Of a stretch of 64,000 nt of DNA, positions 42,408 to 51,387 are shown piece after piece (position 1 is the stretch's first letter; every line of letters begins with the position of its first letter). The stretch is from the human T2T-CHM13v2.0 reference genome, Homo sapiens. The stretch is taken from assembly GCF_009914755.1 (NCBI RefSeq), contig NC_060940.1; one strand, 5' to 3'. Both the position numbers and the translations under genes were made by a program. Below the pieces are notes generated by a model. The model did no database searches. It was given only the letters and a program-made list of their open reading frames with translations, and was not told the origin of the DNA.

Positions 42408-42707
42408 TTCAGGGGTCCCTGAAGTCCCCTCCTTTTCCAGAATACCTAATGATTATTCCAGCCCCTAATTAAAGAAACACCAAATAAAATTAGAAACCCA
42501 AACTCTGTTTGCGTGACTCGTTCTCACGAGCATGCACCCACTTCTCTCTTAAGTGCGGACTTTTGCTTTCCAATAAAAGCTTCTTGCATTTCACTTCATT
42601 CTGACTCACCTGTGAATTCTTTCTTGTGATGATGTCAAGAATCTGGGGACCGGCTGTGGCTGGGGTCTCGTTGGCATCCAGAAACCCTCCTGAGCCCTCT
42701 TGTGACA
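42408..42707 (+). mobile_element. Partial ERV1-type LTR
   Basis: caataaaagcttcttgc...tgaattctttctt...gtcaagaa pattern, ending tgtgaca; family uncertain. Confidence 0.55.
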
Positions 42708-42815
42708 CCAGGATTTGCCGACAGAGCAAATGTGAGGAGAGGCATCAGAATTTCTCTAAGACTTCTGAGCTGAGCAACCATCTAGAAGGTTGGAGCTGCT
42801 TTATTTGGTGGGGAA

Positions 42816-43400
42816 TGTTAGGGAAACCAGCCCCACACCACCCAGTAGGTACCCTGAGTCTGGTGGAGACATAGGAGTTAGAAAGAGACAGAATAAGCAT
42901 TTAAAAGGCGGGTTCAGGGGACCAGAATATCGGAGGCTTGCTCACGGCCCAGAGCTCTTGAGCTCTGCCAAATTTACTGGTTTACAAGCTCTTTGTTCTT
43001 AGGGCAGATGGGAGGGGGAGGAAGGGATGAGGAAAAGGATTAATCAGTGAAGGAGAACTCGTGAGTCATTCCATAAGATGTGTAGCAGTGGCGGTTTCTG
43101 TGAATTTCCTTGAGCAAAGGCGTGTGTCTAAACTACTTAAGATCTTTAGCTTATCAGGACTGAAATGGGTGGGAGCGGGTTTAAGGAGGAGCCAAGATGT
43201 TTGATTATACTCCACTGCTTCAAGGGAGTGTTGTCTCCCTGAGCAACCTGTGGAATGCTGCTGAGTGGTTATGCTCTTGGGGCATAAAGACATGAAAGCA
43301 ATAAGGAGACTTTTCTCCCCAGAGGCTGCCCATGGCTTCCCATGGGTGTCTCACACAGGGGAGACCAACTCAACTGGCACCCCAGAAACACTTTCCCACA
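42816..43400 (-). repeat. 3' LTR (LTR14C-like), 585 bp
   Basis: TG...CA termini; about 92% identical to the 5' LTR by hand count. Confidence 0.93.
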
Positions 43401-43420
43401 TGTTCCCCTTTTTTGCCTCT
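43401..43420 (-). other. Polypurine tract
   Basis: Minus strand AGAGGCAAAAAAGGGGAACA directly before the 3' LTR. Confidence 0.85.
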
Positions 43421-43454
43421 ATTGATTTTTTTTTATTAATAACTGCCATTGCTA

Positions 43455-45433
43455 TTATGGCTCATTCATGGTGTCTGGTTTCTCTCCCAAGGCACCATCT
43501 GCATCTGTAGACTAAAAACAAGCAACATAAACAGACACAAACCAAAATAAAATTTGCAATTGTTGATCCACCTATGGTTTCAATCCACTTTAAAGGATTG
43601 GTATTAGAAAGGCCATCAGAGGCTCCAGCAAGAATATCAGCTCCAGGCAATAGGGTGAGATGAGCCTGAGATGCCTCAAAAACTTGTTTTTTCAGTTTAG
43701 CAATATCTAATGTTAAATTATCTTTTTTTCCTTGTAGGTGACGTCTAATCGTCTCTCACTGGTGTTCAATGGCATTATAAGAGCTAGGAGTAAAACAAAA
43801 ATCGGAAGTATTCCAGTCACATTGTTTTTGAATTCTATGCTCCAAGCTCATAATCCAATCTCCCATCCAAATTACTGTTTGACAGAGATCATTAATTTGA
43901 TTTGCCAATTTTTGACCTATTTGGCTTTGGGAATTCCAAAGCTTAGAAGAATTTTTCTGCCAACTATCCACAAAGCCCGCTGTTTGAATAGAAGAGTGCA
44001 AAGCAACACCAGCAGCAGCAGCAGTAGCTGTGACAGCTATAAGGCCCATGATCACAGCTATTAAAGTAAATATGAATCTCTTTGATCTATTAAGTATTCC
44101 TTTTAGTACTTCCGTGATAATATGTATGGAGGGAGAGGCCTCCCAAGGTCTATTGAGGGAAACAGTTATTCAAACTCCTTGGGCCCTAACCGGTAAAATG
44201 CTATTATCTTTATTAAAGGTAGAATTAATGCAGGTAAAAAGATGACAGTTGAGGCATGATATGGTTTGAGAGTCAGTTAGGATATTAATTTTTCCCACTG
44301 CCAACATAAAAGGAGGTTTAACAAAACTCTGCAATGGGAATGTCTGATTAGAGGTTCATGGCTACGACAAATCAAAGTTTTTTTTACTAAGGGTCTTTGT
44401 TTTATATTCTCCTTTCCAAATCCGAATTGGGGTTTGAGCCATCATTAATTTCCACAATTCTAGATGTTCTGGACTTATAATTGGATCAATCATTTTTGGG
44501 CTTGAAAGAGCCATACCGTTCTCCTCCCACTTAATAGGTTAATTTGTTTTAATTCTTCTATATAATTTTGGTGCATTATCTGGGTAGTTGTTTGCAAAAG
44601 GAGTCTCTCTACCATCTTCGCACTGTCCAGTACAATTTACTGCAAAGCGTCCCATAGGGGCCCAATCAATGACGATTCCATAGGAATTACTTTGCAGTAC
44701 AGCAGTGCTGTTTGCAATACAATCTTCCCAGGTTAGCACCTCTAGCTTTCCAGACCATTTAGTGGCCTTCCTAGGGCAGGGCTTCTTATTAGGTTTATAT
44801 TTATTAATCTGGCGATGTGTCATAACATAGCCGTGCTCAAGGTATTTAATAGTGTCCAAAGATTGAAATGTTCTTCCACTGATTGCATGAATAGGGGCTT
44901 TTGATCCATTATTTGCAGGGACACAAGTCATCCAACTTTGTTTATCATAATTTAAACATCCTGCTGCCGGCCCCAGGCAGATGGAAGGAAAGTGATAACC
45001 AATGGAAACATTCATTAACATTCCTTCCTCCTCTGGATGAGTAGGGCCTCGGTTATCTATTGGTCCAGGCATCCAGATACTATCATTAACATGGGGTCTA
45101 ACCATGTAACAGGCCTAATCAGTGGTGGGAATGGAATGTAGGCCCAGTAAGTGTAATTTTGATCTGCCTCAGCTATGGGGAGACTCACTGCAGGGAGATT
45201 ACCACCATCATAGCTACCATTAGATTACTGGTGGTCAGCAGCTTGTTCAGAGACCTCAGGTTCTCTTCTGCAATGTGAGCTAGGCTCTTCACCTGCCCCC
45301 AGGTCAGTGGAGTTGCTTGGCGAGTTTTACTGGTTTCCATCTGCTCAACAGAGATGTTCATCTGAGCCATCTGATGAACTGGGGGTGCAGGGATGTTCCG
45401 AGGTCTTTTCCTCTTCCTTGGATTCTGGCTCAT
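43455..45433 (-). pseudogene. rec: Rec-like spliced accessory gene (coding exon 45433-45189; exon 43511-43455), with a 1-nt frameshift at the end of the first coding exon
   Basis: RKRKRPR and WGQVKSLAHIA motifs, GTGAGT donor, TTTTTAG acceptor, 18-codon exon [18 protein letters not shown]; position and length match HML-2 rec. Confidence 0.6.
43462..45433 (-). pseudogene. env: env (signal peptide, SU, TM), with frameshifts and stops
   Basis: [29 protein letters not shown], furin site RSKR (44077-88) then [17 protein letters not shown] fusion peptide, [11 protein letters not shown] anchor [15 protein letters not shown]. Confidence 0.92.
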
Positions 45434-47975
45434 GGCACAGCTTAAGATGTCTTGTGGGCACCCAGACAGGAAGCTGATTCTCTTCTGGTGAGATACAAGA
45501 AAACCCTTGACCCCATGTAATGATTTTGCCCTTTTCCCAGGTTTTGGTTCTGATGTCCTTCCACCACACATGTTTTCCTTCATAAGCATTTATTTTTTGC
45601 CTTGTCAAATGCTGCTCTGCTGCCATTGTAACGTGATCTCTAGACAAATTCAGAAAATGTGAAGTGATAAGAGCCAATTGTAGCTGCATATAAGGAGTAG
45701 CGTATTCTCTGGTTTCCCCCTCTGTCTTTTGTTTTTGTAATTGAGATTTTAAGGTTCGATTAGCCTGTTCAACAGTGGCTTGACCTTGAGAATTATAGGG
45801 TATTCCAGTACTGTGCTCGATGTTCCACTGTTAAAGGAACGCCTGTAAAGATTTACTATAGTAGCCTGGGCCATTGTTTGTTTTAATCTTTTGTGGGATG
45901 CCCATGGCAGCGAAACAGGGAAGTAATGTCTTAATATGAGCAGCCGCCTCGCCTGTTTGGCAAGTTGCCCATACAAAATGAGAAAAGGTATCTATAGTAA
46001 CATGGACGTATGAAAGTTTCCCGAACAAAGGTACATGGGTTAGGTCCTTTTGCAACAACATATTGGGGGTTAATCCCTGTGGGTTAACACCAGTCCTTTC
46101 ACGTGGCAGTTGTACTACCTGGCACTGAGGGCAATGTTGCACAATGCCCTTTGCCTGTCTCCAAGTAATTTGTTATTTTTGTTTAAGTCCTGCTGCATTA
46201 ACGTGTTAGGGAGTGAAAATCTTGGACATTAGTAAGCACAGTGGAAATTAATAAATCAGCTTGATCATTAGCCCTTACAAGGGGCCCAGGAAGATTAGTG
46301 TGTGCTCAAATGTGTGTAATATAGAAAGGAAAACGGTGATCATGCACTGCCTTTTGTAAAGAAGAAAACAGCTGATAGAGTTGTTCATCCACCAGATATT
46401 TAATGAGTGCAGTTTCTATGTGTTGAGTGGCTTGAACAACATAAGCTGAATCAAAGACAATATTTACAGGTTGCTTAAAGTTTTCGAACACGCCTATAAC
46501 TGCCTGTAATTCAGCCTTCTGTGCCGATTGAAAGTCAGTTTGAATAATTGTGTTTTTAGGTCGTACGTAAGCTGCTTTTCCATTACTAGAGCCATCTGTA
46601 AACACAGTCACTGCTCCTTCCAATGGAGCATTACGGGTAATTTTTGGAAGGACCCATGTTAGCTTTAAAAACTGAAAAATTTTGTTTTTTGGATAATGAT
46701 TGTCAAGAACTCCAATGAAGCCAGCTAAATTTATTTGCCAATTGACCGAATTAACAAAGGCTTGCCAAATCTGATTTTATTCATTGGAATTATAATCTTA
46801 TCTGGATCTGAGCCACAAAGTTTAACAATTCTAAGGCAAGCTTGCTCAATCAAGATTGCCATCTGATCCAAGTATACTGTGAGTGTTCTAACAGTATTGT
46901 GAGGCAGAAAAGACCATTCAACTAAGTCCTCACTCTGAGCTATAACCCCTGTAGGAGAATGGAGAGTAGGGAACACAATGAACTGTAATGGTAAACTTGA
47001 CTCTATTCTATTAACCTGGGCCTGTTGTATTTTTTCTTCAATTATTTGTAATTCTTTGTCAGCCTCAGGAGTCAGTTATCATTTACTATTGAGAGCAGGG
47101 TCTCCTCTTAAAATAGAGAACAGATTAGACATAACATGGTAGGGATTCCCAAAGTAGGTCAAATTCAACTGATATCCCCTAATAATTTTTGAAAATCATT
47201 TAGTTTTCAGAGAGTCTTTTCGAATTTGAACCTTTTGGGGTTTAATTGCCCTTTCCTGAACCTGCATTTCCAAATATTGGAAAGGAGTGGCCGTTTGAAT
47301 TTTATCTGGTGCTATGAGCAATCCAGCATTGGCTAGCACCTCCTGTAAATATGAATAACACTGGATAAGTTGGTCTCGATTTTCAGCCGCACACAATATG
47401 TCATCCATATAATGAATGACATATGAATCGGGAAACTGATCTCTCACAGGTTGAACATCCTTCCCCGCAAAAGTTTGACAAATAGTAGGACTATTCAACA
47501 TACCCTGCGGCAAGACTTTCCAATGATATCTGGCTGCTGGTTCCTTGTTGTTCATAGCAGGAATAGTAAAAGTAAATTTCTCAAAATTGGACTCTGCTAG
47601 AGGAATATTAAAAAAGCAATCCTTCAAATCTATAATTATTAATGGCCAGTCTCTAGGAATCATGGTGGGCGATGGAAGCCCTGGCTGCAGGGCCCCCATC
47701 AGCTGGATGACTGCATTGACCGCTCGTAAGTCGGTTAGCATGAACCATCTGCTGGATTTTTTCTTTATTACAAACACTAGCGAATTCCATGGAGGAAATG
47801 TGGGCTCAATGTTTCCTTTGTTTAATTGCTCTTTGACTAATTCCTGTAAGGCCCCCAATTTTTCCTGAGAAAGTGGCCCCTGCTCAACCCAAACAGGATT
47901 TTGGGTCTTCCATTTTAAGGGAATAGAACTTGGAGACTCAACAGTGACCAGCCCTAAAAATGGTAACCTAATCCT
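45345..47975 (-). pseudogene. pol: pol (RT, RNase H, integrase), disrupted
   Basis: RT ORF 47196-47858 with LPQG and YMDD; RNase H VFTDGSS/SAQKAEL (46306-46623); integrase [28 protein letters not shown]. Confidence 0.95.
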
Positions 47976-50668: not shown

Positions 50669-50677
50669 ACTTACCCG
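50669..50677 (-). other. Major retroviral splice donor
   Basis: Minus strand CGG|GTAAGT upstream of the gag ATG. Confidence 0.75.
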
Positions 50678-50798: not shown

Positions 50799-50800
50799 GA

Positions 50801-51387
50801 TGTTGGGGAAACCAGCCCCACACCACCCAGTGGGTACCCCAAGTCTGACAGACACAAAGGAGTTAGAAAGAGACAGAATAAGCATTTAAAAGGCGGGTTC
50901 AGGGGACCAGAGCATCAGAGGCTTGCTCACGGCCCAGAGCTCTTGGGCTTCACGCAATTTATTGGCTTACAAGCTCTTTGTTCTTAGGGCAGATGGGAGG
51001 GGGAGGAAGGGATGAGGAAAAGGATTAATCAGTGAAGGAGAACTCGTGAGTCATTCGATAAGATGTGTAGCAGTGGTGGTTTCTGTGAATTTCCTTGAGC
51101 AAAGATGTGTGTCTAAACTACTTAAGATCTTTAACTTACCAGGACTGAAACAGGTGGAAGTGGGTTTCAGGAGGAGCCAAGATGTTTGATTATACTCCAT
51201 TGCTTCAAGGGAGTGTAATCTCCCTGACCAACCTGTGGAATGCCGCTGAGTGGTTATGCTCCCAGGGCATAAAGACATGAAGGCAATAAGGAGACTTTTC
51301 TCCTTAGAGGCTGCCCATGGCTTCCCATGGGTGTCTCACACAGAGAAGACCAACTCAACTGGCAACCCAGAAACTCTCTTTCCCACA
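50801..51387 (-). repeat. 5' LTR (LTR14C-like), 587 bp
   Basis: TGTGGGAAAGAGAG...CCCCAACA on the minus strand, adjacent to the PBS. Confidence 0.93.

What the first reader, a model, noticed from the sequence alone, without database searches (positions are those of the whole stretch)
43455..45486. Rec-like spliced accessory gene preserved in an HML-9-type provirus
Seen (minus strand): all four splice signals needed for a doubly spliced accessory mRNA are intact. These are the major donor CGG|GTAAGT (50674), the env acceptor ttttcttgtatctcaccag| (exon starts 45484), a donor |GTGAGT at 45188 and an acceptor gcttgtttttag| (exon starts 43511). The ATG at 45433 (GCCATGA) opens [22 protein letters not shown]...PLTWGQVKSLAHIAEENL..., and the last exon in phase 0 reads [18 protein letters not shown] (18 aa). 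Established: HML-2 Rec starts at the env ATG, has an NLS RRRRHRNR and an NES WAQLKKLTQLA, splices at the V|VSL position, and ends with the 18-aa exon SAGVPNSSEETATIENGP*. Here the positions, the exon length and the S..E..N.P* pattern all coincide. Inference: this lineage was a complex retrovirus with a Rec/Rem-type RNA-export system, which implies a response element in U3. I know of Rec-like genes reported for HML-2, HML-6 and HML-10 but recall none for HML-9.
Basis: partly seen in the sequence, partly recalled or inferred. Interest (0 to 1): 0.85.

Follow-up and report, generated by a model that had tools for sequence, protein, structure and literature searches.

The report
Broken Rec-type gene in HML-9 provirus
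An old, dead human endogenous retrovirus keeps the splice sites and short reading frames of a Rec-like RNA-export gene at the same places as its younger relative HERV-K(HML-2), which suggests that this gene type is older and more widespread among HERV-K groups than usually stated.

Summary
The provirus (minus strand, 51387-42815) is the published HML-9 16p12.3 element. Compared with HML-2 proviruses from the same genome, the second donor, the second acceptor and the stop are exact positional homologues of the HML-2 rec signals.

They are family-wide. Among 17 HML-9 copies the donor is kept in 16 of 17, the acceptor in 13 of 16 and the 18-codon exon in 9 of 16.

The window copy is not intact. 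One base is missing just 5' of the donor, so its ATG frame reaches the donor in phase 2, not 0.

The same donor and acceptor places recur in five further HML lineages, so this is not special to HML-9. Conservation there is not clearly above what env coding (V-S; L-V-C-R-C) explains. The LTR shows no RcRE-like folding signal, whereas an HML-2 control does. No RNA evidence could be checked.

Verdict: probably a fossil of an ancestral Rec-type gene, a new member of a known kind. I found no report of it for HML-9 in the papers I could search. It has no sign of present function. Interest is moderate.

The parts
50800..51387 (-). 5' LTR (LTR14C type)
   Evidence: Local alignment with the 3' LTR: 540 of 586 aligned bases are identical.
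50669..50677 (-). Major splice donor SD1, CGG|GTAAGT (GT at 50674-50673)
   Evidence: Read. GTRAGT is kept at the aligned place in 13 of 18 other copies.
45485..45504 (-). env splice acceptor (...tcttgtatctcaccag|); exon 2 starts at 45484
   Evidence: Read. The same motif lies 51 nt before the env ATG in HML-2 (tttgcttgtgtttcaccag|GAG). Shown for the copies.
45189..45484 (-). Exon 2: env leader / Rec-homologous exon, with the ATG at 45433-45431 and 81 codons plus 2 nt to the donor
   Evidence: Translation. Pfam PF15695 gives 36.5 bits, E 5.2e-9. BLASTP against the first 87 residues of HML-2 env gives 20 of 62 identical, E 6e-11.
45398..45418 (-). Basic cluster RKRKRPR (residues 6-12), a candidate NLS and RNA-binding motif
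   Evidence: At least 5 K/R in residues 6-13 in 14 of 17 HML-9 copies. Function is inferred, not tested.
45272..45307 (-). LTWGQVKSLAHI (residues 43-54), aligned with the HML-2 stretch PTWAQLKKLTQL; a candidate export signal
Evidence: BLASTP alignment. The pattern W.[QR].[KR].L is found in 12 of 17 copies.
45183..45191 (-). Second donor SD2, GCA|GTGAGT (GT at 45188-45187), with a 1-nt deletion just 5' of it
   Evidence: GT[AG]AGT is kept in 16 of 17 HML-9 copies. 15 of the 16 other copies carry one more base in the 41-nt stretch around the donor.
43512..43531 (-). Second acceptor SA2 (...gcttgtttttag|)
   Evidence: AG is kept in 13 of the 16 HML-9 copies that have the region. It is homologous to the HML-2 SA2 TGTTAG|TCTG (Schmitt 2015, PMC4351823, passage).
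43455..43511 (-). Exon 3 coding part: 18 codons plus TAA, in the +1 frame relative to env
   Evidence: The env frame here reads [17 protein letters not shown] and itself contains a stop.
42815..43400 (-). 3' LTR, where a response element would be expected
   Evidence: Boundaries. Folding scan gives z +0.2 to +2.0. The best window across the env end and U3 gives z -2.1 (43500-43101).

Best explanation
This is the decayed rec-homologous gene of the HML-9 16p12.3 provirus.

Shown:
- The env leader exon (ATG 45433), the donor at the V|VS place (45188), the acceptor just before the env L-V-C-R-C codons (exon start 43511) and the stop 18 codons later sit at exactly the places of the HML-2 rec signals.
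- They are present in most HML-9 copies and in other HML lineages.

Inferred:
- The replicating HML-9 ancestor made a doubly spliced mRNA: leader to SD1, then the env acceptor to SD2, then SA2 to the poly(A) site.
- This mRNA encoded a protein of about 100 residues. The first 82 would come from the long env signal peptide, with a basic cluster and a W-x-Q-x-K-x-L stretch. The last 18 would come from the +1 frame of the env tail.
- Like HML-2 Rec, the protein would bind unspliced viral RNA and carry it out of the nucleus.

In the window copy the gene is dead. A 1-nt deletion next to the donor puts the ATG frame out of phase with the last exon, and env is in at least five pieces. Nothing indicates a present-day function of the coding part.
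For: - Positional homology with HML-2, taken from the same genome.
- Pfam HERV-K_REC is matched above its cut-off. BLASTP against the HML-2 leader gives E 6e-11.
- Among 17 HML-9 copies: SD2 is kept in 16 of 17; SA2 AG in 13 of 16; the ATG-to-donor distance is 246 nt (phase 0) in 11 of 17; the 18-codon exon with its stop at the same place is kept in 9 of 16; and 2 of 17 copies (L034, L036) read uninterrupted for 100 codons across the in-silico splice.
- A phase-0 exon of 18 codons is also seen in the divergent 7q36 copy, in L048, and in lineages B (2 of 2) and C (4 of 4).
- The codon before the acceptor changes between L, I and V (TTA, ATA, GTA) while its final A is kept.
- SD2 is the only GTRAGT in the whole env.
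- In HML-2 these sites are the ones used experimentally (Schmitt 2015, passages).
- In macaque SERV-K/MER11, RNA-seq reads use the rec donor and an acceptor inside HML-8-derived env (Williams 2024, PMC11379458, passages).
Against: - There is no RNA evidence for HML-9. No intron-less retrocopy exists: 0 of 17 exon-2 hits end at the donor and 0 of 28 hits start at the acceptor.
- Between-lineage conservation of the signals is not an outlier. For the donor 9-mer it is 0.735 against 0.601 +/- 0.105, and 39 of 242 windows are as high. For the acceptor 17-mer it is 0.692 against 0.551 +/- 0.141, and 34 of 264 windows are as high.
- The conserved block at the acceptor coincides with the conserved env residues V-C-R-C. 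The stop comes from the env codons A-M-I/M.
- The rec-frame peptide is poorly conserved: 4 of 18 residues are identical between HML-2 and the window (read).
- env third positions in the overlap are only slightly more conserved (0.528, n=19) than upstream (0.429) or downstream (0.416).
- The LTR has no excess folding stability, although an HML-2 control has.
- 7 of the 17 copies lie on the Y chromosome and may be duplicates, so the counts are not independent insertions.
Confidence: 0.62

Rival explanations
1. The signals are a by-product of env coding and common descent. The donor is simply the V-S codons at the end of the signal peptide. The acceptor is the T-rich membrane-span codons followed by L-V-C-R-C. 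The stop is the env A-M-I codons. On this reading HML-9 never spliced here, and any export function sat in the long env signal peptide itself.
For: - Conservation of the sites is within the range of the flanking env sequence.
- The env residues V-S and V-C-R-C are conserved in all lineages.
- The rec-frame peptide is only 4 of 18 identical to HML-2.
- TTA is a common Leu codon in this stretch of the window copy: 2 of 4 Leu codons (my reading).
- The LTR shows no response-element signal.
- Ruggieri 2009 (PMC2649029) reports a stable HML-2 signal peptide distinct from Rec (abstract in the listing).
Against: - A consensus-grade donor paired with a usable acceptor inside env would destroy env mRNA unless it were regulated (inference).
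- The homologous sites are demonstrably used in HML-2 and in a virus carrying an HML-8-type acceptor.
- Donor phase 0 and an open 18-codon frame recur in six lineages.
Confidence: 0.28
2. The splice signals matter today for host transcripts rather than for a viral gene. On this reading the provirus supplies exons or a promoter to the lncRNA LOC105371114.
For: RefSeq exon 1 of the lncRNA (42966-42610) starts inside the 3' LTR, and a RefSeq enhancer covers 42464-43663 (hub annotation; sequence).
Against: The annotated lncRNA uses none of the four viral signals. Its donor is at 42610/42609, in flanking DNA. No annotated exon lies between 43401 and 51387.
Confidence: 0.06
3. The coincidence is due to chance: unrelated GT and AG motifs happen to sit at these places.
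For: The motif counts in the provirus are at chance level.
Against: The same places, the same phase and the same flanking motifs recur in HML-2 and in five other lineages.
Confidence: 0.02

Closest known systems
HERV-K(HML-2) Rec (cORF)
   Same: - The first coding exon is the env leader from the env ATG.
- The donor is at V|VS in phase 0.
- The acceptor is at ttag|TCT, just 5' of the env V-C-R-C codons.
- The last exon has 18 codons in the +1 frame, with its stop at the same place.
- There is a basic cluster near the N-terminus and a W-x-Q-x-K-x-L stretch.

   Different: - The first exon has 82 codons, against 87 in HML-2.
- Identity is 32% over 62 aligned residues.
- The last-exon peptide shares 4 of 18 residues.
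- The LTR gives no RcRE-like folding signal.
- The window copy is out of phase.
- No transcript or protein is known.
'Env Rec domain' of HML10 type II proviruses (Grandi et al. 2017, PMC5667498)
   Same: It is a Rec-homologous env leader found outside HML-2 by a domain search. L048 and L059 here are probably two of those loci, judged by chromosome position only. They carry the same donor and acceptor.
   Different: That paper describes the domain only: 'splice' occurs 0 times in its text, and it reports that the NLS is missing. In the present case the splice signals, phase and last exon were examined, and the basic cluster is present.
sRec of macaque SERV-K/MER11 (Williams et al. 2024, PMC11379458)
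   Same: It is a rec-type double splice that uses an acceptor in non-HML-2 (HML-8-derived) env. This shows that the acceptor place works in another HML lineage (passages).
   Different: Its last exon is 62 aa, not 18. It is backed by RNA-seq. sRec did not promote export in the authors' reporter.
MMTV Rem and JSRV Rej (recalled, not checked here)
   Same: Both are betaretroviral export factors built from the long env signal peptide.
   Different: As I recall, Rem continues in the env frame and Rej is the signal peptide itself. Neither uses a short +1-frame exon.

Membership tests
HERV-K(HML-9) / HERVK14C-LTR14C provirus | The locus is listed as HML-9 in the group's census | tested here: met
   Jia 2022 Table 1 no. 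1 lists 16p12.3, minus strand, 8572 bp, inside a lncRNA. Here the provirus is 8573 bp, on the minus strand, next to TMC5. The relatives found lie on the chromosomes and strands of Jia's other loci (2p12, 15q21.1, 8p11.1, 13q31.1, 4q33, 6p12.3 and others). No repeat library was available for a direct call.
Rec-type accessory gene (HML-2 Rec) | The first coding exon is homologous to the Rec/env leader | tested here: met
   PF15695 gives 36.5 bits against a cut-off of 27.5. BLASTP gives E 6e-11. The model also rings at 143 places, many of them not HML-2, so this feature alone does not define a rec gene.
Rec-type accessory gene (HML-2 Rec) | A donor inside env at V|VS, in phase 0 with the env ATG | tested here: not met
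   The donor motif is present, but the ATG-to-donor distance in the window copy is 245 nt, which is phase 2. The feature is met in 11 of 17 family copies (246 nt).
Rec-type accessory gene (HML-2 Rec) | An acceptor near the env 3' end that opens a short +1-frame exon | tested here: met
   The acceptor reads tgtttttag|TCT and opens 18 codons plus a stop, at the same place as in HML-2.
Rec-type accessory gene (HML-2 Rec) | An arginine-rich NLS/RNA-binding motif and a leucine-rich export signal | tested here: inconclusive
   RKRKRPR and LTWGQVKSLAHI are present and aligned with the HML-2 stretches. Activity cannot be tested here.
Rec-type accessory gene (HML-2 Rec) | A structured response element in the 3' LTR (RcRE) | tested here: inconclusive
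   400-nt windows with 40 dinucleotide shuffles each gave z +0.2 to +2.0 for the 3' LTR and -0.5 to +1.1 for the 5' LTR. The HML-2 3' LTR control gave z -3.1 and -3.5 at LTR positions 181-640. About 20 million years of decay could have erased a structure.
Rec-type accessory gene (HML-2 Rec) | A doubly spliced mRNA is observed | not testable with these tools
   No RNA-seq tool was available. RefSeq lists no such transcript in the window. No processed retrocopy was found.
Rec-type accessory gene (HML-2 Rec) | CRM1-dependent export of unspliced viral RNA | not testable with these tools
   This needs a bench assay.

The most novel reading that the evidence does not exclude
The rec-type double splice is not an HML-2 speciality. 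It would be an ancestral trait of much of the HERV-K (HML) supergroup, defined by a donor at the end of the env signal peptide and an acceptor before the env V-C-R-C codons that opens a short +1-frame exon. Here it is traceable in HML-2, HML-9, a divergent 7q36 copy and four further unnamed lineages. On this reading most human betaretrovirus-like ERVs descend from complex retroviruses.
Probability: 0.45. Interest if true: 0.6.

Novelty: new member of a known kind. Interest (0 to 1): 0.45.

Why it matters
Rec is usually described as exclusive to HML-2. Grandi 2017 says so and calls its HML10 finding 'unexpected'. If HML-9 and several other HML groups carried the same spliced gene, three things follow:
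- The complex-retrovirus state of HERV-K would be tens of millions of years older than HML-2.
- 'Rec domain' hits in ERV surveys would need a splice-site check before they are called genes.
- Transcriptome studies of derepressed HERVK14C loci should look for rec-type junctions and short Rec-like peptides.

For this particular locus the practical consequence is small, because the copy is broken.

Tried and rejected
- **Motif enrichment.** Counts in the provirus are at chance level, so this was dropped as an argument.
- **Conservation profile across seven lineages.** The sites are above average but not outliers, so this is not decisive.
- **Codon-position test for an overlapping frame.** The pattern is flatter in the overlap (0.59, 0.60, 0.53) than upstream (0.57, 0.77, 0.43). 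The env tail downstream is equally flat (0.44, 0.46, 0.42), so relaxed env constraint explains it as well.
- **Folding scans for a response element.** No signal was found in LTR14C. The best window, at the env/U3 junction, gave z -2.1 with 1 of 40 shuffles as low.
- **Search for processed retrocopies as fossil proof of splicing.** None was found.
- **Papers not held.** Flockerzi 2005 on the HERV-K14/K14C families and Lavie 2004 on HML-5 are not held. They may contain statements on rec that I could not see.
- **HML-6 precedent.** One search returned nothing relevant, and Vargiu 2016 has no 'Rec' as a whole word.
- **HML-8.** The HML8 paper reports no Rec domain by CDD.
- **Lineage names.** Lineages A to D could not be named for lack of a repeat library.
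Full report
**What is there**

The window holds a near full-length betaretrovirus-like provirus on the minus strand.
- The 5' LTR is at 51387-50800 and the 3' LTR at 43400-42815. 540 of 586 aligned LTR bases are identical.
- Pfam finds Gag_p10, RVT_1, HERV-K_env_2 and GP41 in its reading-frame pieces.
- All genes are broken. env alone lies in at least five open pieces.
- By cytoband, strand, length (8572 against 8573 bp) and overlap with a lncRNA, it is HML-9 16p12.3, no. 1 in Table 1 of Jia et al. 2022 (PMC9178832, passages). They date it to about 20 million years from LTR divergence.

**Check of the observation**

- SD1 reads CGG|GTAAGT (G at 50674).
- The env acceptor reads caccag|AAG (exon start 45484).
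- The ATG is at 45433.
- SD2 reads GCA|GTGAGT (GT at 45188-45187).
- SA2 reads tgtttttag|TCT (exon start 43511).
- The phase-0 reading is [18 protein letters not shown], with TAA at 43457-43455.

I took three HML-2 proviruses with a 699-codon env from the same genome (L055-L057). In these:
- The env acceptor motif lies 51 nt before the ATG, as in the window.
- The donor ATGGTG|GTAAGT follows codon 87.
- The acceptor tgttag|TCTGCAGG opens SAGVPNSSEETATIENGP*, which is 18 codons.

Schmitt et al. 2015 (PMC4351823, passages) give TGTTAG|TCTG as the canonical rec/np9 SA2. Williams et al. 2024 (PMC11379458, passages) state the 87 + 18 residue make-up of Rec. The HML-9 donor, acceptor and stop are therefore exact positional homologues of the rec signals.

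- In this copy the ATG-to-donor distance is 245 nt. The ATG frame reaches the donor in phase 2 and ends in a TGA that overlaps the donor.
- 15 of the 16 other HML-9 copies carry one more base in the 41-nt stretch around the donor.
- Spliced as it stands, the window copy would give 96 residues with a different tail.
- Motif counts are no more than chance gives: 5 GTRAGT against 4.3 +/- 2.0 in shuffles. Both acceptors fail a filter of at least 10 of 12 pyrimidines.

**The family**

A DNA search of the genome with exon 2 gave 16 further copies at 88-94% identity, one at 83% (7q36, L047) and one at 72% (L048). I fetched about 2.6 kb of each, aligned each pairwise to the window, and tabulated them copy by copy without building a consensus.

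| Feature among the 17 HML-9 copies, window included | Count |
|---|---|
| ATG kept | 10 of 17 |
| ATG-to-donor distance 246 nt (phase 0) | 11 of 17 |
| ATG-to-donor distance 245 / 247 / 243 nt | 4 / 1 / 1 |
| SD2 GT[AG]AGT kept (lost in L032) | 16 of 17 |
| SA2 AG kept, among the 16 copies with the region (AA in L031, L043, L046; L033 lacks the env 3' end) | 13 of 16 |
| 18-codon exon with its stop at the same place | 9 of 16 |
| Uninterrupted 100 codons across the in-silico splice (L034, L036) | 2 of 17 |

- SD1 GTRAGT is kept in 13 of 18 other copies that match the leader.
- The basic cluster has at least 5 K/R in 14 of 17 copies, and the W.[QR].[KR].L stretch is found in 12 of 17.
- Seven of the 17 copies lie on the Y chromosome and may be duplicates of each other, so these are not 17 independent insertions.
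- All copies have decayed neutrally since integration. The counts therefore show what the active ancestors carried, not selection in the host.

**Beyond HML-9**

Pfam HERV-K_REC rings at 143 places in the genome, many of them not HML-2. I fetched 20 such places spread over the score range. By their donor-side motifs they fall into four unnamed lineages, A to D.
- At the homologous donor place, 8 of 20 read GTRAGT and 2 more have GT.
- In lineage D, 7 of 11 read gcc|ATGAG[TC] and 2 read gct|GTGAGT. This is the pair of products expected from decay of one CpG in GCC|GTGAGT (inference).
- At the acceptor place, 15 of the 18 alignable loci keep AG, in the form yTAG|TCTGCAGAT.
- The phase-0 exon has 18 codons in HML-2, HML-9, 7q36, L048, lineage B (2 of 2) and lineage C (4 of 4). 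In lineage D it has 11 codons in 6 of 10 loci.
- L048 and L059 are probably the 1q22 and 1p36.13 'HML10 type II' loci in which Grandi et al. 2017 reported an 'Env Rec domain'. I judge this by chromosome position only. That paper has no splice analysis.

**Is it more than env constraint?**

This is the weak point.
- The donor is the V-S codons at the end of the signal peptide.
- The conserved block at the acceptor is the env residues V-C-R-C.
- The stop is made by the env codons A-M-I/M.
- Between-lineage identity at the donor 9-mer is 0.735, against 0.601 +/- 0.105 for all 9-mers, and 39 of 242 are as high. At the acceptor 17-mer it is 0.692 against 0.551 +/- 0.141, and 34 of 264 are as high.
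- env third positions are slightly more conserved in the overlap (0.528, n=19) than upstream (0.429) or downstream (0.416).
- The rec-frame peptide shares only 4 of 18 residues with HML-2.

In favour of a real constraint:
- The codon before the acceptor changes its amino acid (TTA, ATA, GTA) but keeps its final A.
- SD2 is the only GTRAGT in env.
- The homologous sites are used in HML-2, and also in a macaque virus whose acceptor lies in HML-8-derived env.

**Response element**

I scanned 400-nt windows with 40 dinucleotide shuffles each.

| Region scanned | z-score |
|---|---|
| Window 3' LTR | +0.2 to +2.0 |
| Window 5' LTR | -0.5 to +1.1 |
| Window env end / U3, best window (43500-43101) | -2.1 |
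| HML-2 3' LTR control, LTR positions 181-640 | -3.1 and -3.5 (0 of 40 shuffles as low) |

There is no sign of such an element. Decay over about 20 million years may have erased one.

**Fossil test of splicing**

HML-2 rec mRNA has left L1-made retrocopies (Schmitt 2015). For HML-9, 0 of 17 exon-2 hits end at the donor and 0 of 28 hits with the acceptor region start at the acceptor. This is no support, and with so few copies it is not evidence against either.

**Literature**

- Jia 2022 mentions Rec only for HML-2.
- The chimpanzee HML-9 paper has no 'Rec' as a whole word.
- Searches for HML-9 with Rec, for HERV-K14C, for HERV-K14CI, and for rec-like with HERV-K and HML gave no report for HML-9.
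- Flockerzi 2005 and Lavie 2004 are not held. Supplements were not consulted.

**Verdict**

The copy in the window is broken. The best reading (about 0.6) is a fossil of an ancestral Rec-type gene shared by several HML lineages. The main rival (about 0.3) is that env coding and descent alone keep these motifs. It is a new member of a known kind and of moderate interest.

Noticed in passing
42610-42966 (minus), inside and beyond the 3' LTR 42815-43400: Exon 1 of the RefSeq lncRNA LOC105371114 starts at LTR position 435 of 586. It runs through the LTR end and stops at a CAG|GTGAGT donor in flanking DNA (GT at 42609-42608). This is an LTR14C-initiated lncRNA. The RefSeq enhancer 42464-43663 covers the same LTR.
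   Followed up: partly
genome-wide: Pfam HERV-K_REC rings at 143 places, many of them outside HML-2. A 'Rec domain' hit marks the long env leader of many HML lineages, not a rec gene.
   Followed up: partly
L063, L065, L066, L069-L076 (lineage D), donor place: The donor place reads gcc|ATGAG[TC] in 7 copies, gct|GTGAGT in 2, gct|GCGAGT in 1 and gcc|GTTAGT in 1. Nearly every copy has lost the same CpG in one of its two decay directions.
   Followed up: no
L032, L038, L040, L044-L046 against window 45515: Six HML-9 copies stop aligning with the window about 30 nt 5' of the env acceptor. This fits the shared pol deletion in Jia 2022 Table 3, where about 6% of pol is retained.
   Followed up: no
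L078+L055 (HML-2 3' LTR), LTR positions 181-640: This region folds more stably than shuffles (z -3.1 and -3.5, with 0 of 40 shuffles as low). It is the kind of signal expected of the Rec response element.
   Followed up: no
43505-43511 (minus): A second AG lies 7 nt into exon 3 (TCTACAG|). In HML-2 the AG at the same offset is used when SA2 is mutated (Schmitt 2015).
   Followed up: no
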